NCBI GenBank assembly: GCA_947447955.1
Contig: CANFLS010000002.1
Location: forward strand, 9,072-73,071
Length of the DNA: 64,000 nucleotides
Direction of reading: 5' to 3'
From: Flavobacteriales bacterium
GTDB lineage: Bacteria; Bacteroidota; Bacteroidia; NS11-12g; UBA955
Of the stretch, positions 1 through 12,480 are shown one piece after another (the first letter of the stretch is position 1; each line of letters opens with the position of its first letter). The notes beneath the pieces are model-generated. The model searched no databases, was not told the DNA's origin, and saw only the letters and a program-made list of their open reading frames with translations. A program made the position numbers and the translations under genes.

Positions 1-2
1 TT

Positions 3-845
3 ATGATTCGAAAAGCACAAAGACAAAAAGCAAAAATTAAACTCGCCCTACAAGGATCTAGTGGTTCTGGAAAAACGTATTCCGCACTTCAAATAGCAAA
101 TGGTATGGCTGAATGGAATAAAATCTGTGTCATTGATACAGAAAACAATTCAGCTGATTTGTACTCACATTTAGGACCGTACAACGTGCTTACATTAAGC
201 AAACCTTTCACTCCTGAAAAGTACATTGAAGCCATCTCAGAATGCGAAAAATTAGAAATGGAAGTCATTATCATTGATTCCCTATCTCATGAATGGGATG
301 GAGATGGAGGGATTTTAGAAACACATTCAAATATGCCAGGTAATTCATTTACGAACTGGTCTAAATTGACTCCGCGACATAATGCCTGTGTTCAAAGAAT
401 CCTAAACGTAAATGCCCATGTAATCGCAACATTGAGAACCAAACAAGATTATGTCCTTACAGATAAAAATGGAAAGATGGTTCCTGAGAAAGTAGGTTTA
501 AAATCTATTACCCGTGATGGTATGGATTATGAGTTTACAATTGTGTTTGAAATAGATATCACGCATAAATGTGCTGCATCCAAAGATAGAACAGGAATAT
601 TTGTTCAGGATTTTCCATTTCAAGCTTCCAAGATAACAGGACAGCGAATTCTAAACTGGTGTGAAAGCGGAGATAAAACAATTGCTCAACAGATTGAAGA
701 ATGTACCGACGTACAATCCCTCAAAATTCTGTATTACGATTTGTCCCTATCTGAAAAGTCAATGTATCACAAGGATTTTTTAGCCCGTCAAATAGAACTT
801 AAACCAAAATTTGAAAGCAATGGAGCTAGCCACATTCATCAATGA
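3..845 (+). CDS. AAA_24/Sak4-like P-loop ATPase (phage/element recombination-associated ATP-binding protein). The start sits at the window edge and may be 5'-partial.
   Basis: Walker A 'GSSGSGKT' near the N-terminus, a Walker B-like 'VIIIDS' and RecA-like spacing. This is typical of phage AAA_24 ATPases and lies on the integrase-bearing element. Confidence 0.55.
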   Translation: MIRKAQRQKAKIKLALQGSSGSGKTYSALQIANGMAEWNKICVIDTENNSADLYSHLGPYNVLTLSKPFTPEKYIEAISECEKLEMEVIIIDSLSHEWDGDGGILETHSNMPGNSFTNWSKLTPRHNACVQRILNVNAHVIATLRTKQDYVLTDKNGKMVPEKVGLKSITRDGMDYEFTIVFEIDITHKCAASKDRTGIFVQDFPFQASKITGQRILNWCESGDKTIAQQIEECTDVQSLKILYYDLSLSEKSMYHKDFLARQIELKPKFESNGASHIHQ

Positions 846-1758
846 GAACATCGCAGAAGCGAGAGTTTCATCCGACAGCCGATTTATTCATGCGAATACA
901 AAATCTGTTTCATTAAACCACCTTAGAGACGATTGCGTAATACCAGTTTTTTCGAAGGACAATGAACCAACTATTAGCAATGCAGACTTCGTTGAAAGCG
1001 TTTATAATGCTGTTCAGAATGTATTTTGCACGGAGGACATTCTTTTGCCTTCTGTAAGGGTTTCTCATCCAATTAAGGGTAGAATTCCAGATGCAAAAGA
1101 TAAGGCAGCAGAAGAGCTCCTAGACGGCGAAAAAACGGTTTATTATGAACGGGTAATGTTCACTATTGAAATCCCTTCTATTTATCGTGTAATCAATGGC
1201 AATCACCTTACTTTGACTGTCGGTGGTGTTAGGGGTTATCACCTAGAAAACCTTTATTCTAAGCGTTCTTTACAGAAATTCAAGGTATTTGTTGGTTTCA
1301 GAAACAGGGTTTGTTGTAATATGTGCGTCAGTACCGATGGAATCTTGGATGATTTAAAAGTAGGTACGAGTTCTGAGCTTTCGGACACAACAGAAAATCT
1401 ACTTTTGAAGTACGAATCAGCAGAAACTTTGGCTCAATATTCTCATTGGGGAAGAACCAAACTTACCGAACAGCAATTTGCTGAATTCTTGGGAAGATGT
1501 AGAATGTTGAATTTTATGCCATCCATTGAAAAGAAGAAGCTGCCAGAATTATTGTTTACCGACCATCACTTAAATTTGGTTGCTGAGGGATATTTCAAAG
1601 ACCAACACTTCGGTAGAGAAAAAGACGGCAGCATTGACCTATGGAAACTTTACAACCTATTTACAAGTGCTAACAAATCAAGTTATATTGATCGATTCCT
1701 AGATAGAGGCGTAAATGCAGCCACAGTAATTTCTAATTTAGAAAGTTATTTATTCTGA
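811..1758 (+). CDS. DUF3871-like hypothetical protein. It is commonly paired with an AAA ATPase on Bacteroidota mobile elements.
   Basis: 315-aa ORF that overlaps the end of the ATPase gene. I recognise the family only loosely from memory of the ATPase+DUF3871 pairing. Confidence 0.35.
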   Translation: MKAMELATFINENIAEARVSSDSRFIHANTKSVSLNHLRDDCVIPVFSKDNEPTISNADFVESVYNAVQNVFCTEDILLPSVRVSHPIKGRIPDAKDKAAEELLDGEKTVYYERVMFTIEIPSIYRVINGNHLTLTVGGVRGYHLENLYSKRSLQKFKVFVGFRNRVCCNMCVSTDGILDDLKVGTSSELSDTTENLLLKYESAETLAQYSHWGRTKLTEQQFAEFLGRCRMLNFMPSIEKKKLPELLFTDHHLNLVAEGYFKDQHFGREKDGSIDLWKLYNLFTSANKSSYIDRFLDRGVNAATVISNLESYLF

Positions 1759-1788
1759 CTGTAGTTGCGTTGATTAACTTTTAATGTG

Positions 1789-1824
1789 AATCCCTCCAAT
1801 TTAATTGGGGGGATTTATTTTTAT
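1789..1824. terminator. Bidirectional hairpin terminator between convergent genes
   Basis: Imperfect inverted repeat 'aatccctccaa...ttggggggatt' followed by a T-rich run. It sits between the + gene ending at 1758 and the - gene ending at 1855. Confidence 0.4.
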
Positions 1825-1854
1825 ATTGAGCAATTCTAAATATTTTAAACCCTA

Positions 1855-2439
1855 TTATAAAATCAGCCAAGTCATCATAACAACCACATAAGCTCCAAAA
1901 CTAATCAAGCCAATTTTCTTGTTATGTTTTCCTACTTTTTCACGTTCAGCATTATTCATGGCAGCTTTACTTGCATCGTATTTGGGATTCGGAACTAAAT
2001 GCGAATAATTCACACCATAAGATTCCCATTTTGTTACTGTATCATTTGTAAACCAAAATTGAACATACGTTTCAATCGTTGAACTATTAACGGTTTGTCT
2101 ATTAACTTGATTTTGAGTTGTATTTAAAGCTCTATCCTGTGGTCTTAAATAAGGATTCAAGGGATCCTGATATATCCTTCCGACACCGCTTGAAAAGCCA
2201 ATACTTGTTGAGTTTGTTACTTCCGATAATTTGAAGTACCAATTTTCAATATTCTCAAAAGTTTCCTTTCTAGTCGGAGTACCATATTTTACAAATACAG
2301 ATTTTTTAGTTGGAAAATCCTCAGTCATAACCTCGTTGTGCGGTTTCATAATTGATTCCGATATAGTATACGGTGGAGGAACAACTGCACAAGAACTTAC
2401 CCAAATCACTACTAATAAAGCTAATAAATAATTTTTCAT
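1855..2439 (-). CDS. Hypothetical lipoprotein
   Basis: N-terminal signal peptide 'MKNYLLALLVVIWVSSC' with a lipobox Cys. No recognisable catalytic motif. Confidence 0.5.
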   Translation of the reverse strand: MKNYLLALLVVIWVSSCAVVPPPYTISESIMKPHNEVMTEDFPTKKSVFVKYGTPTRKETFENIENWYFKLSEVTNSTSIGFSSGVGRIYQDPLNPYLRPQDRALNTTQNQVNRQTVNSSTIETYVQFWFTNDTVTKWESYGVNYSHLVPNPKYDASKAAMNNAEREKVGKHNKKIGLISFGAYVVVMMTWLIL

Positions 2440-2504
2440 TATTGCAAATCTAAAGCATCAAACCTATTATTTGAAAAAAATCCATAAACTTTAATAACAC
2501 CATT

Positions 2505-2954
2505 ATGAAAAACCCAAACATACAAGAAATCAAACTCCATTATATTGCAAACACAAGCAATGAACCAATCACCATAAAAAGCTCACAGGAAGCGTTTAAG
2601 GCCTTCAAAAACATCTTTGATCAAAATACCTTAGCCGTTAGGGAAGAGTTCAATATAATCTATTTAAATAGGGCAAACAAAGTCATCGGAACCTACCAAG
2701 ATTTCAAAGGCGGAATTACAGGTGTAGCAGTCGATTTAAGGCTGATATTTGCTGTTGCTTTAAAATGCCTTGCTGTAACCATTATAGTGGCCCACAACCA
2801 TCCTACGAACAATTTAAAACCATCACAGGAAGATTTAGACATTACACAGAAACTTCATGATGTAGGAAAAATCCTCGACATCAAACTAATGGACCATCTG
2901 ATTCTAGGAACGGATAACAATTATGTGAGTTTTGTGCAGGAAGGGTGGATGTGA
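2505..2954 (+). CDS. radC: RadC-like JAB/MPN domain protein
   Basis: JAMM motif 'HNHP' plus a downstream 'D' in 'VAHNHPTNNLKPSQEDLDIT', in a 149-aa protein. This is typical of RadC proteins on mobile elements. Confidence 0.8.
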   Translation: MKNPNIQEIKLHYIANTSNEPITIKSSQEAFKAFKNIFDQNTLAVREEFNIIYLNRANKVIGTYQDFKGGITGVAVDLRLIFAVALKCLAVTIIVAHNHPTNNLKPSQEDLDITQKLHDVGKILDIKLMDHLILGTDNNYVSFVQEGWM

Positions 2955-3032
2955 TGAAAATCAAAAATTCCGTTCATTTAATTAAAATTTAAAATATATC
3001 TAAATTTAACACAAAAAATTATCTTTGCCATT

Positions 3033-3767
3033 ATGCAATTCAGGAAATTTATAATGATGATAGTTTTAGGTTTGATGTTTTCTAATTTATCCAGCCAATC
3101 AAAATTATCAGTAGAAAAAAAGCTAACTCCGACTGGATTTGGAAAATTAAAAATTAACAAGACAACAGTTTCAGACTTGTTGAAGGGTGATTCAGATATT
3201 TTGTATTTTTTTTTAATAAAAAACAACATCGACACTTTAACAGGGAATGGGCCTGATTTCAATGAGTTTGGGTCAGAATTTTCGAATATTCTAATTTATT
3301 CAAATTTGTATTATGGCTACAAAGTAAGAATGGGAATCATCAAAGAATACACCATAGGAGAATCAAAAATAAATTTGGCTTTGGTGTTTTATAATGATAC
3401 TTTAGTTCAATTAACTATAGCTAATTTAAATTCTGAACTTCATGATCAATGGAAATTAAAATACGGGGATGGTATCTTGACATCTCAACTCAAAAAGATT
3501 AAGTGTAGCAATATGTATGGAGAATTTAGTGAAGAAGAATTGTATTCAACAGTTAACTGGGGCAATAATTTATCGAAAGTATTAGCAACCTGGGAGTTTG
3601 ATAAATATTATGATTCAAAATGTCAAAAACAATATATGGATTATTTTAAGGTACAAAATCCTAAAAAAATGAAAATTGTAGAAACAATTTCGAATAAAAA
3701 CATATTGAAAATTCAGGGATTAATTGAAAGAAAAAAGAAAAATGAAGCTTTAAAATCAGACCTCTAA
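3033..3767 (+). CDS. Hypothetical secreted protein
   Basis: Signal-peptide-like N-terminus 'MMIVLGLMFSNLSSQ'. No motif recognised. Confidence 0.45.
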   Translation: MQFRKFIMMIVLGLMFSNLSSQSKLSVEKKLTPTGFGKLKINKTTVSDLLKGDSDILYFFLIKNNIDTLTGNGPDFNEFGSEFSNILIYSNLYYGYKVRMGIIKEYTIGESKINLALVFYNDTLVQLTIANLNSELHDQWKLKYGDGILTSQLKKIKCSNMYGEFSEEELYSTVNWGNNLSKVLATWEFDKYYDSKCQKQYMDYFKVQNPKKMKIVETISNKNILKIQGLIERKKKNEALKSDL

Positions 3768-3793
3768 ATACTTATTTTAAATTCCAACTTAAC

Positions 3794-4084
3794 TCAATCA
3801 GTCCTTTGTAACCACTCCAATCCTTTCATAGTCCAGCTTATAAGCAATTCACATTCTTCTGGAGACAACCCTTTTGTTCTGTTTATCTCAAACGTATCGA
3901 TAGATACATGAAAACCACCTAGACATTCTAAGTCCCAAATTACGTAAGTATTGCTTTCATCAAGATATGCATCTGCATTCAGAACTTGCTCATCTCTATT
4001 AAATTTACATATTAGAATCCTTTTGGATGGATCACGTGGTGCTAATGCATATTGAAAAGGCCCGTAAGAAATATAGTTATACAA
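3794..4084 (-). CDS. Small hypothetical protein, paralogue 1 of a tandem pair
   Basis: 96 aa. Its C-terminal half aligns with the neighbouring 100-aa protein: 'VIWDLECLGGFHVSIDTFEINRTKGLSPEECELLISWT' against 'VVWEVDEIGTYHVSLDNLDIDKTEGLFQEETELLQFWT'. Confidence 0.55.
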   Translation of the reverse strand: MYNYISYGPFQYALAPRDPSKRILICKFNRDEQVLNADAYLDESNTYVIWDLECLGGFHVSIDTFEINRTKGLSPEECELLISWTMKGLEWLQRTD

Positions 4085-4126
4085 AACTTGAGTTTTTTAA
4101 TTGAAGTTAATTGTTAAAACATGACA

Positions 4127-4429
4127 TCAGCCTTCTAACAAATGCATTCCATGGTGATTTGTCCAGAATTGGAGCAATTCAGTTTCTTCTTGAAATAAGC
4201 CTTCCGTTTTATCAATATCCAAATTGTCTAATGAAACGTGATAGGTTCCTATTTCATCAACTTCCCATACTACACACGTTTTACTAATATTAAGCGAACC
4301 TTCGGCAGTGATTCTTTGTTCTCCTCTGTGCAGAGTGCCAATTATTACTGTTTTCAAAGGGTCATAATCTGACCTAGGTGTTTCAACTGGAGGTTCAGCA
4401 ATTTTCAATTTGATGTCATTGGTGGTCAT
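4127..4429 (-). CDS. Small hypothetical protein, paralogue 2 of a tandem pair
   Basis: 100 aa, paralogous to 3794..4084. Immediately downstream of the caspase-like gene on the same strand. Confidence 0.55.
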   Translation of the reverse strand: MTTNDIKLKIAEPPVETPRSDYDPLKTVIIGTLHRGEQRITAEGSLNISKTCVVWEVDEIGTYHVSLDNLDIDKTEGLFQEETELLQFWTNHHGMHLLEG

Positions 4430-4485
4430 TTTGAGGGATTTTGTCTATGATTTTTATTAATTATTGAAACCTAAATGAGTATTTC

Positions 4486-5217
4486 TTAATTTAACTTAAA
4501 AAGCTTTGAAAATTCTTGTAAATTCAAGTTGCCCAAGATGTAATCACTCTTTTGAACAGCAAGTTCATCTTTATTTATTTCCTGAACAAATTGTTCAAAG
4601 CTAAATGCTGAATTTTCATTTAATTTTTCCATCAGGGATATGAAGAATTTTTGTGTACCATATCCTCCATGAAAATTTGTATAAGCGAAATTCTCAAGTT
4701 CAGTAACATAGTACATCATGTAAAATGAGTTCATGCAATTTAGGGTATTTTCCCATTGCACTCTATTCTGTTCCGATTTTCCAGGAAAAGAGTATTCTTT
4801 TCTTAAAACTTCAAACTTAGGCGAATTAGGTGCAGGGTTGTTTGACCTACAACAATCCATAAAAATCCATTGTTTCTTATTAGGCCTTATGAATTCAGAT
4901 TCATATATGCTCTGGCCATCCTTAAGAGGGATTTGAATTCTTCTATCCACAAAATTTGAATGTCCCGAAAAATATATAAACGTATAATCAGAAGCGTCTA
5001 TTAACTCAAATATTGCATCACGGGTAATGTCATTTGTTTTGCATGTTGAAATTTCATCATCATTAAAAGAACCACCTGAAGCGGAAGTCAAAAAACACTT
5101 AATAAGTCCCAAATCCGATTCGGATTTAAACTCTTCAGAAGCGTCTAAGCTATTATCATTACAAAGAAGAATTGCTTTTCTTGTGATTTTTTTATGTTCA
5201 TTCATGGGATTATGCAT
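4486..5217 (-). CDS. Caspase-like (peptidase C14 / CHAT-like fold) cysteine protease domain protein
   Basis: beta1-like 'KAILLCND'. Catalytic-His motif 'IYFSGHS'. Catalytic-Cys motif 'IFMDCCRS' about 46 residues later, which matches the caspase/metacaspase His-Cys dyad spacing. The start overlaps the upstream small gene by 8 nt. Confidence 0.6.
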   Translation of the reverse strand: MHNPMNEHKKITRKAILLCNDNSLDASEEFKSESDLGLIKCFLTSASGGSFNDDEISTCKTNDITRDAIFELIDASDYTFIYFSGHSNFVDRRIQIPLKDGQSIYESEFIRPNKKQWIFMDCCRSNNPAPNSPKFEVLRKEYSFPGKSEQNRVQWENTLNCMNSFYMMYYVTELENFAYTNFHGGYGTQKFFISLMEKLNENSAFSFEQFVQEINKDELAVQKSDYILGNLNLQEFSKLFKLN

Positions 5218-5512
5218 CTTTATTTGTCCTGAAAATTTCTATTGCTAAATTCCTTTTTTCATGGAAAACTGTTGGGTGTACATACTCGCATTTGCCATCT
5301 TTTTCTATCCGAAAATATTCTATATGACGATGTATTCCAGCACCATCATTCGAAACATCATCTGGGACTACAGCCAGGAGATATACAATTTCTTCTAATT
5401 CGTAGTAAATCACATTTAAACAACGTCTGCTACCCCACGACAAATAATCAATTATTTGAGTTTCAAGCCTTGCATTAAACTCATCAACTGTTATTTGCTG
5501 TTCATTGGTCAT
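5210..5512 (-). CDS. Small hypothetical protein (100 aa) in an operon with the caspase-like gene
   Basis: Overlaps the downstream caspase-like ORF, so translational coupling is likely. Its start ATG overlaps the stop of an upstream paralogue remnant (ATGA). Confidence 0.5.
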   Translation of the reverse strand: MTNEQQITVDEFNARLETQIIDYLSWGSRRCLNVIYYELEEIVYLLAVVPDDVSNDGAGIHRHIEYFRIEKDGKCEYVHPTVFHEKRNLAIEIFRTNKDA

Positions 5513-5652
5513 ATTGGTATTTTATTTTTAGGTATAAGCAATTTTGTCCAAAATTGAAGCATCTCTGATTCTTCTGACGACAAACCTTCCGTTTTATCAA
5601 CAATTAATTTATATTGGATATATTTTTCAACTACTTCAATTTGCCTAACTTT
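5509..5652 (-). pseudogene. C-terminal remnant of a third member of the small-protein paralogue family. It has no start codon.
   Basis: The minus-strand frame translates to '...KLIVDKTEGLSSEESEMLQFWTKLLIPKNKIPI*'. This matches the C-termini of the 3794..4084 and 4127..4429 proteins, and the nucleotide string 'ccttccgttttatcaa' is shared with 4127..4429. There is no ATG in frame after the upstream stop. Confidence 0.45.
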
Positions 5653-7097
5653 TTCATATTGTTATATGTCCATGAGTTTTGTTTAGACGCAAAAAGTTGA
5701 CGACCATTTTTTTTGTAAAACTCTTCACCTGTCAGTGGATCCCGAATTTTTACTGACCACAAATCATCTTTAAAAAGAAGGTGCTCAGTTAGACTTCTTA
5801 TTGCACCACCAGCAGTAGTAACATTATAAACCGAAACATATTGCTTTCCACGCCTCGTCACTTCTACCTTGTTTAGAACTGCGTTTTTTGAAAGAATATA
5901 CTCTTCGGCTTTTTTGTGTTTTTTAGTACGTTCATCTTCAATTGTATCAGACCATCTAAATCTACTATCTACAATTGGGAATTTAACATTCGCTGATATT
6001 TCGATACCTTTATTCTTCAATTCAGAAATAATGAAATTAACAGAATCTTCAAACCGAAGCAAACTGGGAATTTCAGGTACAACAATTAAATTCACCCCAT
6101 ATTGTTTACATTTTTCTATTTTAAGTTTGTCATCTTGCAACAATTTTTTAGTTCCTCTATGATACTTTTCTGAGTAATGTTGTTTACCATTATGTTCAAA
6201 AGCAATTTTTAAATGATCAGAAAACCCATCTAATTCTAGTCGATTTCCTTCATTATTTAGCAACCATGTAGGTCTAACTTTTAAAAACGGAACTTCGAAA
6301 ATTGATTCGAAAATAAATCTACAAACTCTTTCGCCGACACCAGCTGAACAATAGGGACACCAAATTGATTGACTTTTGATAGTGCTATATTTTGATTTAA
6401 ACTCATGTCCATCTTTACATTTCCAAACTTGCAACTCATATGGATTGTATGTTTCTGATAAAAACTTTCCGTTCCTTGTTTCGGCGAGTGAAATACAATC
6501 TGCAATTGTAACTTTCCCTTTACCACTGCATTTTGGGCAATTTTGTTTATGATTTTTAATATTGTTGTATGTCATTGTAAAAACATGACCTTTTTTATTG
6601 CATTTCCATTGTGCTTTTATAGTTGTTCTATTTGGAATTTGAAGAGATAACAATTCACAATCCACGTGAATACCCGCCATTACATAATCATCTCGTGAAA
6701 CTTTTGTTCGGTCTTTTTGCCAAAGCTCAGTTGATAGACAAATTTTACACCAACTACCTTTAGATAAAGATTGTCCATGAGGATAAAATATATGCCCCTC
6801 ACCACATTTTACCTTGTATTTTGTATGTTGATTGATATATTGCTCACTTAGGAATTCACCACCTTTTTGTTTGCAAATTTCCCGCATGTCATCTATTGTA
6901 ATTTTCTTTTGGCCAGCACAATTAGGACACCAACTTCCTCTTAATATAGAATCCGCAGTGGCAGACCAAATGTGACCATGTTCACATTCCCAATCATAAT
7001 GTGCTTTTACACCAGAATATTCACTACTAAGGCATTTACCCAATTTTTCATTTGCGGTAAAACGCAAGTCTGTTATAGTTTTCTTTGGGTTATTCAT
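5631..7097 (-). CDS. Multi-zinc-ribbon (DUF4379-like repeats) protein with a C-terminal Vsr/DUF559-like (restriction-endonuclease-fold) domain
   Basis: About five repeats of 'W.C..GH.W......G.WCP.C' in the N-terminal 250 aa. The C-terminal 'LELDGFSDHLKIAFEHNGKQHY' matches the DUF559/Vsr 'vDF....klaiEvDGgqH' pattern. Confidence 0.5.
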   Translation of the reverse strand: MNNPKKTITDLRFTANEKLGKCLSSEYSGVKAHYDWECEHGHIWSATADSILRGSWCPNCAGQKKITIDDMREICKQKGGEFLSEQYINQHTKYKVKCGEGHIFYPHGQSLSKGSWCKICLSTELWQKDRTKVSRDDYVMAGIHVDCELLSLQIPNRTTIKAQWKCNKKGHVFTMTYNNIKNHKQNCPKCSGKGKVTIADCISLAETRNGKFLSETYNPYELQVWKCKDGHEFKSKYSTIKSQSIWCPYCSAGVGERVCRFIFESIFEVPFLKVRPTWLLNNEGNRLELDGFSDHLKIAFEHNGKQHYSEKYHRGTKKLLQDDKLKIEKCKQYGVNLIVVPEIPSLLRFEDSVNFIISELKNKGIEISANVKFPIVDSRFRWSDTIEDERTKKHKKAEEYILSKNAVLNKVEVTRRGKQYVSVYNVTTAGGAIRSLTEHLLFKDDLWSVKIRDPLTGEEFYKKNGRQLFASKQNSWTYNNMKKLGKLK

Positions 7098-7192
7098 TAT
7101 ATATCGTGAAGCGTTTATTAAACTATTTAATGAATATCGAAATAAATTGAATTCGAGGGCAGTTTATTCAAAAATCACAAAAAAAATCCAAA

Positions 7193-7232
7193 TTACAACA
7201 AAAAAAACTCCACTCATTGCTGGGTGGAGTTG
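7193..7232 (-). terminator. Rho-independent terminator downstream of the 7256..7861 gene
   Basis: Hairpin 'ctccactcattgctgggtggag' followed, on the minus strand, by a T-run. Confidence 0.45.
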
Positions 7233-8059: not shown

Positions 8060-9775
8060 TTATATAGCATGTACCCTACCAAATTCATCTATCCTAAATA
8101 AATTCAAATCCTTAAAAATTTGCATCATCATTCGACTTTGTTTAGCATCTATATCATAATTATCCTGAAGAATCCATTCTAAATCCAAATAATAAACCTC
8201 TTCCTGTCTAAAAATACCAGGCCCTGTTTTGAAAAAATCTTCTGCAGCCAAATAGAAATTTTCGTCTTCACCATATACAGAACTACCAATCCTGTCATGT
8301 ATAAATTTTATAATTGGGTCAAGAACATATTCTGTTTCTGATTCAGGCAAAACCAAAATTTCAGGGTTGAAATCGAAACTACCTTCACCTTCTTTTCCTA
8401 GTAAATCTTGAGTGTTGAAGGTAACACGTTCATTTAATTTCAAAATTACATTTTCGCAATTTCCATTACTTCGGCGAAATCCTTCATTTGCCTGAGAGAT
8501 CTCTTTATTACCCTCACCTTCAAAATTCACTATGGTTTGAGGGCTGAAGGTTGAAGCATCTGGATTTTCTGCTGTATCAAATATATTTTCGTTACCATCA
8601 CCTTCAACTTTTTCTTGGGTATTTGGTGTGAAGGTTGTTTTTGTCTCAGCATTTATTTCCGAAGAATCTTTGGGGGCAAATTCATCAAGATAGTAAAGTC
8701 CTTTTACATTTTTAACTCTTTCTATTGTTGCCAAATCTCTTAAACGACGTTCGGCCGTTGTTAATGATACATTTAAAAAAGTTTTAATTTTTAGACACGT
8801 AGTTTTAAACGGAAAACCTTTATCTTTAAATATCATGAATAAATCGGACTCAGTTAATTCTTGTTTGCTTTTTTTAACGTTACTATTCATTGATTCCCAA
8901 TTACCCATAACATCAAAGGTTAATGTTTCCTCTTCAAACTCAACTGGGAGTCTATTTTCCTTGTAAAAGTTGGATGTATAATTTCCTTTGGCTACGTTAA
9001 AAAACTTTTGTCCACTTTCGTTTCTAGATAAATATAATGCATATCTAACTTTTTGGGTTAACCCACTACCGCCTTGTATTAATTCTTGAGATGGATTACT
9101 CTTGTATCCAGCTTTATTAACGTGATGAACAAAAAGAAGAGCCAATCTATGGGTTCTGACTAATTCATCAAACGCTTTGATGTCCCGCCTCATCTGAATA
9201 TTGCTGTTTGTATCGGAACCAGAAAATATATCTCCAAACGCATCTACAATAATTAGATCGACTGGATTTTCTTCACAGAATAAAGACAACTTCTTTATTA
9301 ATTCAGTGATTGTTTCATCGGTTAAAAAAGCCAAGCTAAGATTGTTTTTATCAAGATCTACATGTTTCAGCAATTGCTTGTTTAAACTGCTACTAACGGC
9401 ATCCTCTTGGTCTTCCGTAAAAACATAAAGAACCCGATTGTGAATCGGTTTTAATCTCTGGCCCAAATATTCGGTAGAGCCTTTTGCAATTGTTATAGCC
9501 AATTCTTTAGCTAGTTGAGATTTTCCCATATCAGGAGGTCCAACCAATAATCCTGTTCCTGTGCGAGGAATTAGGTTATCCCATAAGAAGTCCGTTTCTT
9601 TTCCATCAAAGGATGCCAAAAGTTCGGTAGCTGTGTAAACTAATAAGCTACTTTTAGTTTTAACAGCGGTTGTGATTGAACTAACGTTGGTTTGTTCGTG
9701 TGCTCCAGATGAATCTTTCCGATACTCTGAGCTTTTTATTAAATTACTCATAATTGAATGCAAAATTGGCAGCAT
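8060..9775 (-). CDS. AAA_25/RepA-like P-loop ATPase (primase-associated replicative helicase of integrative elements)
   Basis: Walker A 'GPPDMGKS' and Walker B 'LIIVDAF' in a RecA-like core, with a long C-terminal extension. It sits in the position typical of element replication modules, near the integrase and excisionase-like genes. Confidence 0.6.
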   Translation of the reverse strand: MLPILHSIMSNLIKSSEYRKDSSGAHEQTNVSSITTAVKTKSSLLVYTATELLASFDGKETDFLWDNLIPRTGTGLLVGPPDMGKSQLAKELAITIAKGSTEYLGQRLKPIHNRVLYVFTEDQEDAVSSSLNKQLLKHVDLDKNNLSLAFLTDETITELIKKLSLFCEENPVDLIIVDAFGDIFSGSDTNSNIQMRRDIKAFDELVRTHRLALLFVHHVNKAGYKSNPSQELIQGGSGLTQKVRYALYLSRNESGQKFFNVAKGNYTSNFYKENRLPVEFEEETLTFDVMGNWESMNSNVKKSKQELTESDLFMIFKDKGFPFKTTCLKIKTFLNVSLTTAERRLRDLATIERVKNVKGLYYLDEFAPKDSSEINAETKTTFTPNTQEKVEGDGNENIFDTAENPDASTFSPQTIVNFEGEGNKEISQANEGFRRSNGNCENVILKLNERVTFNTQDLLGKEGEGSFDFNPEILVLPESETEYVLDPIIKFIHDRIGSSVYGEDENFYLAAEDFFKTGPGIFRQEEVYYLDLEWILQDNYDIDAKQSRMMMQIFKDLNLFRIDEFGRVHAI

Positions 9776-10598: not shown

Positions 10599-10877
10599 CT
10601 ACGCACACTCCCTACACTTAACTTTATTCTTCTCCATTTGCTCGTAGACGGAGTTTATGTCGTAATAATACATATTACCATACAATGTGAATGTAAGAGC
10701 TCCATTGATCCTTAAATCGGTTAATTTGGTGGTTGAAATTTGAAGCAGTTCTTTGACTTCTGCTCCTTTTAACCATTGTCTGGGATTTCTCTCATTTTGT
10801 AACAAGTCTGTCATAGCTGCTATCATCTCTGCTTTGAACTTGCTGAAGTGTTCTTCAGTAACTAAATCTATTTTCAT
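10599..10877 (-). CDS. Helix-turn-helix DNA-binding protein (excisionase/Xis-like, HTH_17 type)
   Basis: 92 aa with a 'WLKGAEVKELLQISTTKLTDLRINGAL' HTH motif. It lies immediately upstream of the integrase, which is the usual Bacteroidota int-xis arrangement. Confidence 0.6.
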   Translation of the reverse strand: MKIDLVTEEHFSKFKAEMIAAMTDLLQNERNPRQWLKGAEVKELLQISTTKLTDLRINGALTFTLYGNMYYYDINSVYEQMEKNKVKCRECA

Positions 10878-10879
10878 GA

Positions 10880-12208
10880 TTAAATAATTTTTTGTAATTG
10901 TGGTGCTTGTTCAGAATCTTCATTCGAATTGTCTTCATCTGGCCATTGGGTAGTCAGTTCTCTCAGTTTTACCATTTCCCCCAATATTTTCTGATTCGTT
11001 ACCTTGGCGTAAATCTGCGTTGTTTTGATATCAGAATGACCAAGCATCTTACTTACGCTTTCCATAGATATTCCCTGAGTCAAAGTTATGGTAGTAGCAA
11101 ACGTATGTCGAGCCAAATGTGTAGTAAGCGTTTTGTTGATTCCACATATATCTCCAATTTCTTTTAAATATGCATTCATCTTTTGATTGCTCAACACTGG
11201 CAACACTTTTTTATCAATTTCTCTAGCAGGATGGCCATTGTACTTTTTAATAATTCTCAATGCTGCTGGTAAAAGTGGAACATTAACACCATTGCCAGTT
11301 TTTTTACGTGATGTATTAACCCATTGTTCCCCATCTATTCCCATGGAGATTTGATCTATGGTTAACATTTTAATGTCGATATACGCTAATCCCGTATAAC
11401 AGCAAAACACAAAAATGTCCTTTACCATTTCTAACCGTTCATTTGAAAAAACCTTTGCTTCCAATACGCTCAATTCTTCCATTGTTAAATAGCCCCTGTT
11501 AACCTCCCTGATTTTTCCCTTGTACTTTACATATGGGTCTTTGCTAATCATTTCAGTATTTAAAGCATATCCAATAACCGTTCTAAAGTACTTTACATAT
11601 TTAACGGCCGCATTATTGCCAATTCCTTTATCCGTTCGTAAGAAGTGCTCAAAATCCATCAAATTGGAAAATTTAAAGTCGTCGACTGCGACATCTTGAA
11701 CGTTCAACTTTTTGTTCAAGAAATCAAGCAAATGAACTTTTAGGGTGCAATATTTTCGATATGTTAAATGACTGTATTCAATACCTACCAAATCTTTTCT
11801 AATGGCAATAAACCTTTCAAAGATTTCCATAAGGGTAACTCGTTTTTCTGGAGTGCCTAAGTAATGCTTTTTAATGTCATAGACGCTAATTGCATTGCCA
11901 TTACCTACCAACATGGAATACACCTGATAGATGTTGTTGTTAATGTCTCCTAAGCAAGAATTGATGGTTTTAGATTGCTCTGATGAACCTCTTGCCCTTT
12001 TGTTAATTTCACACCATTTGTTAGCTTCAATTTTCAAACCAGTGCTCATTTCAACCCTTTGAGAGTTAAGTGTGATTCGGACGTAAATAATTACTTTTTC
12101 GTCATTCGATGTTCTTGTTTTGCGTGTTGTAAAAATAACGCTGAAAGAATTGTACATTTTTTTACTAATTATATCCATAAAGTTACTACATTTTGCTTCG
12201 AAAGTCAA
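10880..12208 (-). CDS. int: Tyrosine-type site-specific integrase
   Basis: C-terminal catalytic region 'HLARHTFATTITLTQGISMESVSKMLGHSDIKTTQIYAKV' carries the R..H..R..Y signature. An N-terminal Arm-type domain is present. It is adjacent to the tRNA-Asp 3' end. Confidence 0.9.
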   Translation of the reverse strand: MTFEAKCSNFMDIISKKMYNSFSVIFTTRKTRTSNDEKVIIYVRITLNSQRVEMSTGLKIEANKWCEINKRARGSSEQSKTINSCLGDINNNIYQVYSMLVGNGNAISVYDIKKHYLGTPEKRVTLMEIFERFIAIRKDLVGIEYSHLTYRKYCTLKVHLLDFLNKKLNVQDVAVDDFKFSNLMDFEHFLRTDKGIGNNAAVKYVKYFRTVIGYALNTEMISKDPYVKYKGKIREVNRGYLTMEELSVLEAKVFSNERLEMVKDIFVFCCYTGLAYIDIKMLTIDQISMGIDGEQWVNTSRKKTGNGVNVPLLPAALRIIKKYNGHPAREIDKKVLPVLSNQKMNAYLKEIGDICGINKTLTTHLARHTFATTITLTQGISMESVSKMLGHSDIKTTQIYAKVTNQKILGEMVKLRELTTQWPDEDNSNEDSEQAPQLQKII

Positions 12209-12403: not shown

Positions 12404-12480
12404 TGGCGGTCTGGACGGGACTCGAACCCGCGACCCCATGCGTGACAGGCATGTATTCTAACCAGCTGAACTACCAAACC
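12404..12480 (-). tRNA. tRNA-Asp (anticodon GUC)
   Basis: Reverse complement 'GGTTTGGTAGTTCAGCTGGTTAGAATACATGCCTGTCACGCATGGGGGTCGCGGGTTCGAGTCCCGTCCAGACCGCCA'. It folds as a cloverleaf with anticodon loop 'CTGTCAC' and is near-identical to E. coli tRNA-Asp. Confidence 0.9.

What the first reader, a model, noticed from the sequence alone, without database searches (positions are those of the whole stretch)
5631..7097. Unusual fusion: about five tandem treble-clef zinc ribbons joined to a Vsr/DUF559-like endonuclease domain
The N-terminal 250 aa consist of a repeated 'W(K/E)C..GH.(W/F)......(G/S).WCP.C.G' module. This pattern is known from DUF4379-type 'probable zinc-ribbon' proteins that are enriched in giant viruses and mobile elements. 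The C-terminus matches the restriction-endonuclease-like DUF559/Vsr signature. Multi-zinc-ribbon nucleic-acid binders fused to a nuclease could act as a sequence- or structure-sensing effector nuclease. Alternatively they could act as a homing-endonuclease-like selfish gene.
Basis: partly seen in the sequence, partly recalled or inferred. Interest (0 to 1): 0.5.

Follow-up and report, generated by a model that had tools for sequence, protein, structure and literature searches.

The report
Zinc-finger-array homing-type nuclease on island
This gene encodes four zinc-finger DNA-binding modules joined to a Vsr-like DNA-cutting domain, an architecture already described for homing endonucleases of phages and giant viruses, so it is a real but fairly ordinary selfish nuclease gene carried on a bacterial genomic island.

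Summary
The ORF is real (window 5631-7097, minus strand, 488 aa). It has four, not five, ~60-aa Cys/His modules that pass Pfam thresholds for DUF4379 and CapR.

The fusion is not unusual:
- 117 of the 120 best homologues carry it.
- The nuclease domain has 5,675 representative clusters.
- Campylobacter phages annotate relatives as "Hef-like homing endonuclease".
- A 2025 paper describes this architecture in phage introns.

The gene is cargo of an integrative island at tRNA-Asp in a Flavobacteriales-like genome. It behaves as a gene-sized mobile cassette. In one relative it is a 1,549-bp low-GC insert between two housekeeping genes, and four empty alleles were found.

The best reading is a free-standing homing-type endonuclease. 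A domesticated interference nuclease is the main rival.

Only the last ~110 residues are unexplained. They occur in a narrow clade and are under purifying selection.

Verdict: new member of a known kind, modest interest.

The parts
5631..7097 (-). Whole ORF, 488 aa plus stop: zinc-finger array, Vsr-like nuclease domain and C-terminal domain
   Evidence: It has 14 full-length homologues at 55-89% identity. dN/dS against the L003 copy is 0.13. It is single copy in the window.
6912..7085 (-). Zinc module 1 (aa 5-62). Ligands C38, H42, C57, C60.
   Evidence: Regex and alignment. The CapR PF21817 match covers aa 24-61. Ligands are at least 90% conserved. pLDDT is 95-98.
6732..6905 (-). Zinc module 2 (aa 65-122). 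Ligands C98, H102, C117, C120.
6522..6701 (-). Zinc module 3 (aa 133-192). Ligands C166, H171, C187, C190.
   Evidence: The best DUF4379 stretch covers aa 154-193.
6342..6515 (-). Zinc module 4 (aa 195-252). Ligands C227, H231, C247, C250.
   Evidence: All four ligands are invariant in the close family. C247 and C250 are invariant in 121 sequences.
5973..6341 (-). Vsr/EDxHD-like PD-(D/E)xK nuclease domain (aa 253-375). Putative active site E256, D290, H302, H307, D323, plus E301 and K326.
5634..5972 (-). C-terminal domain of unknown fold class (aa 376-488): long helix, three-stranded sheet, less confident tail with the motif DPLTGEEFY...GRQLFASKQNSWTYNN.
   Evidence: It occurs only in the close family. 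It has no Pfam, PHROG or PDB match. dN/dS is 0.185. Block-mean pLDDT is 56-93, lowest (56-74) over aa 441-488.
7098..7196 (-). Upstream part of the ~1.58-kb cassette, lying between the upstream gene's hairpin plus T-run and the ATG.
   Evidence: Homology to L030 stops at window 7197, just after the hairpin CTCCAC-N10-GTGGAG-T8. Homology to L003 stops at 5618, 13 bp past the stop codon.
10880..12208 (-). Context: tyrosine integrase of the island that carries the gene.
   Evidence: Pfam Phage_integrase, Phage_int_SAM_5 and Arm-DNA-bind_5.
12404..12480 (-). Context: tRNA-Asp, the integration site of the island.
   Evidence: ARAGORN. Homology to the related island L003 begins inside the tRNA at 12435.

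Best explanation
The gene encodes a free-standing endonuclease of homing type. It belongs to the family that joins an array of CapR/DUF4379-type zinc fingers to an EDxHD/Vsr-like PD-(D/E)xK nuclease domain.

Proposed mechanism:
- The four ~60-aa zinc modules, each a helical linker plus a CHCC zinc site, together read a long DNA target. This is inferred from experimentally shown DNA binding by CapR and CasPR domains.
- The Vsr-like domain cuts DNA with a Mg2+ site built on D290, assisted by E256, H302, H307 and D323. This is inferred from conservation and from the Vsr/I-Bth0305I precedent.
- Cleavage of alleles that lack the gene, followed by recombinational repair, would copy the ~1.5-kb gene cassette into new sites. 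This is inferred from the presence/absence patterns found here.

In this window the cassette rides as cargo on an integrative island inserted at tRNA-Asp of a Flavobacteriales-like bacterium. The extra C-terminal domain (aa 376-488) is probably a further DNA-contact or dimerisation element. That last point is a guess.
For: Domain content:
- Pfam DUF4379 and CapR pass their thresholds.
- Confident AF2 models were obtained.
- E256 (117/118), D290, E301, G304, H307 and D323 (all 118/118) are conserved.
- Their spacing matches the published E170/D196/N208/H213/D222 of I-Bth0305I (PMC3239194).

Family precedent:
- The same architecture is reported as homing endonuclease genes in phage group I and II introns (PMC12350094).
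- Campylobacter phage relatives cover aa 2-342, occur in 2-7 copies per genome, and are annotated as Hef-like homing endonucleases.
- phrog_559 matches at E 2.8e-38.
- 283 viral structure matches were found.
- CapR domains bind DNA, and this depends on their Cys residues (PMC8096241).

Mobility:
- In L001 a 59%-identical copy is a 1,549-bp insert. Its GC is 35%, against 44-46% in the flanks.
- It lies exactly between the FtsX-permease stop codon and the next small ORF, and the four empty alleles L023, L024, L026 and L027 lack it.
- Homology to L001 and L005 is confined to the gene itself, while the L005 integrase is only 24% identical.
- In the window the conserved block ends 13 bp after the stop codon. 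In L030 it begins right after the upstream gene's terminator.

Other:
- No partner gene is conserved across eight contexts.
- Purifying selection acts on all three regions, with dN/dS 0.11-0.19.
Against: - Nothing here shows cleavage, a target site or homing.
- The window copy is not in an intron or intein.
- No true empty allele of its own site was found. L030 differs downstream as well, so it is a mosaic junction rather than an empty site.
- The window and L003 copies lie in an island backbone that is equally similar elsewhere (86-89%). That pair alone therefore does not show independent movement.
- Gene-sized insertion could also result from ordinary horizontal transfer and illegitimate recombination.
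- Strong purifying selection and island residence fit a domesticated function equally well.
- The equivalence of active-site residues rests on motif spacing, not on a superposition I could inspect.
Confidence: 0.6

Rival explanations
1. Domesticated interference or defence nuclease. The island uses a homing-endonuclease-derived, sequence-specific nuclease to cut an infecting or helper phage, or a competing element. This would parallel the way the Vibrio PLE satellite uses HEG-derived proteins.
For: - The gene is cargo of integrase-bearing islands in 4 of 5 close contexts.
- Distant relatives lie in variable regions near AbiEii, HNH_5 and HSDR_N_2 genes.
- The window island has a satellite-like layout of integrase, small HTH protein and AAA_25 primase/helicase-like protein.
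- dN/dS is 0.13.
- There is a precedent for domestication of this DNA-binding domain in a satellite (PMC8096241) and in anti-CRISPR repressors.
Against: - PADLOC gave no hit.
- There is no conserved partner, immunity gene or methyltransferase.
- One homologue sits alone between housekeeping genes as a clean insert, which a selfish gene explains more simply.
Confidence: 0.22
2. Non-cutting DNA-binding regulator. The protein has lost nuclease activity and acts as a repressor through its zinc modules, like CapR or CasPR.
For: CapR and CasPR are HEG-derived repressors that use the same domain type.
Against: - Those repressors lack a nuclease domain.
- Here the nuclease domain is intact, with all EDxHD residues invariant or nearly so in 118 relatives.
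- That domain is under purifying selection, with dN/dS 0.115.
Confidence: 0.08
3. Vsr-type repair nickase that corrects T:G mismatches arising from cytosine methylation.
Against: - The Pfam Vsr model gives no hit.
- No cytosine methyltransferase is present in the island.
- A four-module DNA-binding array and a patchy, mobile distribution do not suit a housekeeping repair enzyme.
Confidence: 0.03
4. RNA-binding or RNA-cutting protein resembling RAP-domain proteins.
Against: - RAP is a eukaryotic organellar lineage of the same fold.
- The close relatives with known function act on DNA.
- Sequence identity to the RAP hits is only 6-16%.
Confidence: 0.03

Closest known systems
CapR-like zinc-finger array plus EDxHD/Vsr-like homing endonucleases of phage group I/II introns (Nucleic Acids Res 2025, PMC12350094)
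   Same: Three to five ~60-aa domains related to Pfam CapR, DUF4379 and DUF723, followed by a ~100-aa EDxHD/Vsr-like nuclease domain. That paper already notes thousands of unannotated relatives.
   Different: The window gene is not intron-encoded. It is free-standing on a bacterial integrative island, and it carries an extra ~110-aa C-terminal domain. I did not compare sequences directly with those four proteins.
I-Bth0305I, prototype of the EDxHD homing endonucleases (PDB 3R3P, PMC3239194)
   Different: I-Bth0305I uses NUMOD/HTH-type DNA-binding regions, not zinc modules. It is encoded in a group I intron in phage recA. Identity is only 17% over 94 aligned residues.
Hef and 'Hef-like homing endonucleases' of T4-related and Campylobacter myophages
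   Same: tblastn matches cover aa 2-342, that is the zinc modules plus the nuclease. They are free-standing, with 2-7 copies per phage genome. Taylor et al. place Hef in the Vsr-like family.
   Different: Identity is 25-29%. They are phage-borne and lack the C-terminal domain.
CapR of the Vibrio cholerae PLE satellite and CasPR anti-CRISPR repressors
   Same: The same zinc-finger DNA-binding domain type. DNA binding was shown experimentally and depends on the Cys residues.
   Different: They have one or two modules and no nuclease, and they act as repressors.
Marseilleviridae and other giant-virus '4 x DUF4379 + restriction endonuclease' proteins (PMC5513546)
   Same: The same domain order and module number. 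They are the best BFVD structural matches, at E 1e-32 to 1e-33.
   Different: They are eukaryotic-virus proteins at 22-28% identity, and their function is untested.
E. coli Vsr endonuclease (PDB 1CW0/1VSR)
   Different: Vsr is a single-domain repair enzyme linked to Dcm. It has its own structural zinc site and intercalating Trp residues. The Pfam Vsr model does not match here.

Membership tests
CapR-like array + EDxHD/Vsr-like homing endonuclease family (PMC12350094) | Three to five ~60-aa domains related to Pfam CapR, DUF4379 or DUF723 | tested here: met
   Four modules. DUF4379 scores 51 bits against a cutoff of 24.5. CapR scores 24.4 against 24.2. DUF723 scores 12.4, below its cutoff.
CapR-like array + EDxHD/Vsr-like homing endonuclease family (PMC12350094) | A ~100-aa domain with the Vsr/EDxHD fold following the array | tested here: met
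CapR-like array + EDxHD/Vsr-like homing endonuclease family (PMC12350094) | Conserved E, D, H, D catalytic residues | tested here: met
   E256 is conserved in 117/118 sequences; D290, H307 and D323 in 118/118. Order and spacing resemble I-Bth0305I. The equivalence is inferred from spacing, not from a superposition.
CapR-like array + EDxHD/Vsr-like homing endonuclease family (PMC12350094) | Residence in an intron or intein, or free-standing with presence/absence polymorphism at a defined site | tested here: inconclusive
   Met for the homologue P0012: a 1,549-bp insert with four empty alleles. For the window copy only mosaic boundaries were found, at 7197 and 5618. No true empty allele was found.
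CapR-like array + EDxHD/Vsr-like homing endonuclease family (PMC12350094) | Site-specific DNA cleavage that drives homing | not testable with these tools
   Needs biochemistry and crosses.
Vsr very-short-patch repair endonuclease | Match to the Pfam/NCBIfam Vsr model | tested here: not met
   No Vsr hit at E up to 10 for aa 253-488, and none in NCBIfam.
Vsr very-short-patch repair endonuclease | Linkage to a cytosine-5 methyltransferase | tested here: not met
   No methyltransferase among the island genes.
DUF559 (PF04480) endonuclease-like proteins | Match to the DUF559 model | tested here: not met
DUF2726 (PF10881) PD-(D/E)xK family | Match to the DUF2726 model above threshold | tested here: not met
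   Fifteen of 54 relatives give weak hits, best E 0.0014. None was listed for the query at E up to 1.
Known anti-phage defence systems (PADLOC-DB 2.0) | Match to any defence-protein model | tested here: not met
   No family at E up to 0.01 for the target protein.
Type II restriction-modification system | Cognate methyltransferase next to the nuclease | tested here: not met
   None in the window island or in eight homologue contexts.

The most novel reading that the evidence does not exclude
The island-borne copies form a distinct subfamily whose clade-specific C-terminal domain (aa 376-488) adapts a homing-type nuclease to the island's own use. The island would deploy it as a sequence-specific weapon against a helper phage or a rival island, as PLE satellites deploy HEG-derived proteins. 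The domain's tail motif is shared with small ~119-aa island proteins, which would then mark a common DNA-recognition or partner-binding element of these Bacteroidota islands.
Probability: 0.15. Interest if true: 0.5.

Novelty: new member of a known kind. Interest (0 to 1): 0.27.

Why it matters
The value is mainly for annotation. The protein and its thousands of relatives are filed as "zinc-ribbon domain-containing" or "hypothetical". Here they can be read as nucleases with a CapR-type zinc-finger array and a Vsr/EDxHD-like catalytic domain.

The clean occupied and empty allele pair in Flavobacteriales MAGs gives a concrete candidate target site for testing homing by this family outside phages. 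Modular zinc-finger arrays that read long DNA sites attached to a compact nuclease may also interest enzyme engineers.

None of this would surprise a specialist in mobile elements.

Tried and rejected
- **Sequence searches of the PDB.** The whole protein, the nuclease-domain profile and the C-terminal-domain profile found nothing usable.
- **Pfam on aa 253-488.** Only a chance-level DUF7346 hit appeared.
- **Foldseek of the C-terminal model against the PDB.** No hit had E below 0.2. The top of the list was still RAP, I-Bth0305I and Vsr.
- **AFDB50.** This library was unavailable.
- **C-terminal domain as a cysteine-less CapR module.** hhalign of its profile against 254 aligned zinc modules gave probability 1.2%, so the idea was rejected.
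- **Paralogue fragment at 5542-5610 as a scar of the nuclease gene's insertion.** Comparison with L003 shows it belongs to the neighbouring caspase-like cassette instead.
- **Second att copy of the tRNA-Asp 3' end.** None is present in the window, so the far island end was not defined.
- **PADLOC.** No hits for the target protein or eight of its nine neighbours. The AAA_25 protein (8060-9775) gave three weak hits, best mad8 at E 6.2e-05.
- **Sigma-70 promoter and terminator scan.** Counts were at chance level, and the scan does not suit Bacteroidota promoters.
- **Metagenome scan for an empty allele of the window's own site.** It gave one locus, L030. That locus is a mosaic junction, not a clean empty site.

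Full report
**The observation**

The ORF exists at window 5631..7097 on the minus strand and encodes 488 aa. The N-terminal 252 residues hold four, not five, repeats of about 60 aa. Each repeat is a helical linker of the type 'TIxD...A...G.(C/F)LS..Y' followed by a C-x3-4-H ... C-x2-C ligand set. The ligand sets lie at aa 38-60, 98-120, 166-190 and 227-250.

Pfam recognises the repeats. DUF4379, described as a 'probable treble clef zinc finger', scores 51 bits against a cutoff of 24.5, with E 1.6e-13 over three stretches. CapR just passes its cutoff at 24.4 against 24.2. All sixteen ligand positions are at least 90% conserved in the close family. The full-length AlphaFold2 model has mean pLDDT 90.3, with the modules at block means of 89-98 and only the module 2-3 linker lower. 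I could not inspect coordinates, so zinc geometry is inferred, not measured.

**The nuclease claim**

Sequence profiles do not support a DUF559/Vsr 'signature':
- No Pfam family matches aa 253-488 below E 0.1.
- PDB sequence searches are empty.
- Among 54 relatives, DUF2726 gives weak hits in 15 (best E 0.0014) and DUF559 in one (E 0.07).

- many other PD-(D/E)xK nucleases below these

In 118 aligned domains E256 is conserved in 117. D290, E301, G304, H307 and D323 are conserved in all 118. Their order and spacing parallel E170/D196/N208/H213/D222 of I-Bth0305I, which equal E25/D51/H64/H69/D97 of Vsr (PMC3239194). I infer this equivalence from motif spacing.

**How common the fusion is**

The fusion is very common:
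- 117 of the 120 best homologues contain the nuclease domain next to zinc modules. Many carry further modules after it.
- Those 121 proteins hold 770 modules.
- A full HMMER scan with aa 251-488 finds 5,675 representative clusters at E up to 0.001 and 2,018 at E up to 1e-10.
- phrog_559 matches aa 16-370 at E 2.8e-38.
- 110 phage records match. In Campylobacter myophages the matches cover aa 2-342, occur 2-7 times per genome, and are annotated 'Hef-like homing endonuclease'. In other phages the same zinc modules sit next to GIY-YIG or other nucleases.
- Foldseek against viral structures gives 283 hits at E up to 0.001. Giant viruses lead the list, and it includes phage 'homing endonucleases'.

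**What the literature already says**

- A 2025 paper reports homing endonuclease genes in phage group I and II introns. They have three to five ~60-aa CapR/DUF4379/DUF723-like domains followed by an EDxHD/Vsr-like domain. The authors call this a large unrecognised outgroup with thousands of UniProt hits (PMC12350094).
- CapR is a satellite repressor derived from a homing endonuclease. Its DNA binding is lost when its Cys residues are mutated (PMC8096241).
- CapR domains are also required for the DNA-binding CasPR anti-CRISPRs.
- CapR and related zinc-finger domains recur in T5orf172 homing endonucleases (PMC10448857).

**Context in the window**

The gene lies in an island next to tRNA-Asp (12404-12480). 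The island carries:
- a Bacteroidota-type tyrosine integrase (10880-12208)
- a small HTH-like ORF
- an AAA_25 primase/helicase-like protein (8060-9775)
- a caspase-like ORF (4486-5217)
- RadC, DUF3871 and AAA_24 genes up to the window start

No second att copy is in the window, so the island extends beyond the window start. Flanking genes with Por_Secre_tail domains point to Bacteroidota. The closest genomic relatives are Flavobacteriales MAGs.

**Evidence that the gene moves on its own**

1. In L001, a 59%-identical copy is a 1,549-bp segment of 35% GC, against 44-46% in its flanks. It lies exactly between the stop codon of an FtsX permease gene and the next small ORF ahead of gcvT. Four related contigs (L023, L024, L026, L027) keep the same gene order without it. 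In L026 and L027 the two flanks are only 8 bp apart. I saw no convincing terminal inverted repeats or target duplication, only a 7-bp GGATTAG repeat that may be chance.
2. Nucleotide homology between the window and L001 or L005 is confined to the gene. In L005 the gene lies directly after an integrase only 24% identical to the window's.
3. Against the related island L003 (integrase 88.5% identical), the conserved block around the gene runs from window 7354 to 5618. It ends 13 bp after the stop codon. The rest of the upstream ORF is only 35% identical.
4. In L030 the upstream ORF is 92% identical up to its hairpin and T-run (window 7197). Unrelated DNA without the nuclease gene follows.

The gene therefore sits at boundaries of genetic exchange, as reported for phage nuclease genes (PMC10448857). 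No partner gene is conserved across eight contexts. dN/dS against L003 is 0.13 overall, and 0.11, 0.115 and 0.185 for the three regions, so all parts are maintained.

**Mechanism and rivals**

I commit to a free-standing homing-type endonuclease (confidence 0.6).
- Shown: the domains, the fold, the conservation, and the gene-sized presence/absence pattern.
- Inferred: zinc binding, DNA recognition by the array, Mg2+ catalysis at D290, and homing.

The main rival is a domesticated interference or defence nuclease serving the island (0.22). Island residence and purifying selection favour it. PADLOC gave no hit for the protein and the solitary insert in L001 weighs against it. The other rivals are a non-cutting regulator (0.08), a Vsr-type repair nickase (0.03) and a RAP-like RNA function (0.03). 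All three fit the conserved active site, the absence of a methyltransferase, or the DNA-acting relatives poorly.

**What remains unexplained**

Residues 376-488 form a helix, a three-stranded sheet and a lower-confidence tail. They occur only in the close family: 14 full-length proteins, a 306-aa variant (P0042) and a fragment. They match nothing in Pfam, PHROGs or the PDB. They are not detectably a degenerate zinc module. The tail motif DPLTxEEF...QxFAxxxNxxxYNN also opens small 118-119-aa proteins, and the one whose context was examined (P0386) lies next to an integrase in another island.

**Verdict**

It is a new member of a known, recently described kind, not an unusual fusion. Interest is modest (0.27).

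Noticed in passing
window 4118-5617: A ~1.5-kb cassette that is absent from the otherwise 86-89% identical island in L003/L004. It holds a 100-aa ORF (5210-5512) overlapping a 243-aa caspase-like ORF (4486-5217; Peptidase_C14 at 21.5 bits against a cutoff of 21.4). It is bracketed by paralogous small ORFs (4127-4429, 3794-4084) and by a 23-aa C-terminal fragment of a third paralogue at 5542-5610. It looks like cargo exchange by recombination between the paralogues.
   Followed up: partly
window 12404-12480; L003 5274-5641; L004 3538-3905: The same island family (integrase 88.5% identical) sits at the 3' end of tRNA-Asp in the window but at the 3' end of the tmRNA gene in L003/L004. Homology between the two starts about 30 nt before the end of each RNA gene.
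   Followed up: partly
window 1-3800: AAA_24 (3-845), DUF3871 (811-1758) and RadC (2505-2954) genes show that the mobile element continues to, and probably past, the window start. Its far end was not found.
   Followed up: partly
window 5634-5740 (aa 453-488); P0386-P0388; L028 7001-7360: The C-terminal motif DPLTxEEF(Y/F)P...QxFAxxxNxxx(Y/F)NN of the nuclease protein is also the N-terminus of 118-119-aa proteins. The one looked up (P0386, in L028) lies near an integrase and a resolvase gene in another island. The function is unknown.
   Followed up: partly
window 8060-9775: A 571-aa AAA_25 protein matches phage primase/helicase PHROGs. Together with the integrase and a small HTH-like ORF (10599-10877), it gives the island a satellite- or PICI-like replication module.
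   Followed up: no
window 7197-7225: A hairpin CTCCAC-N10-GTGGAG followed by T8 lies just after the upstream 201-aa ORF and is conserved in L030. It marks the left edge of the nuclease cassette. The terminator scan missed it because its loop exceeds 8 nt.
   Followed up: partly
contigs of P0007; protein P0042: The P0007 island carries a second, 576-aa DUF4379 protein on the opposite strand. P0042 is a 306-aa variant of the family that keeps only one zinc module plus both C-terminal domains.
   Followed up: no
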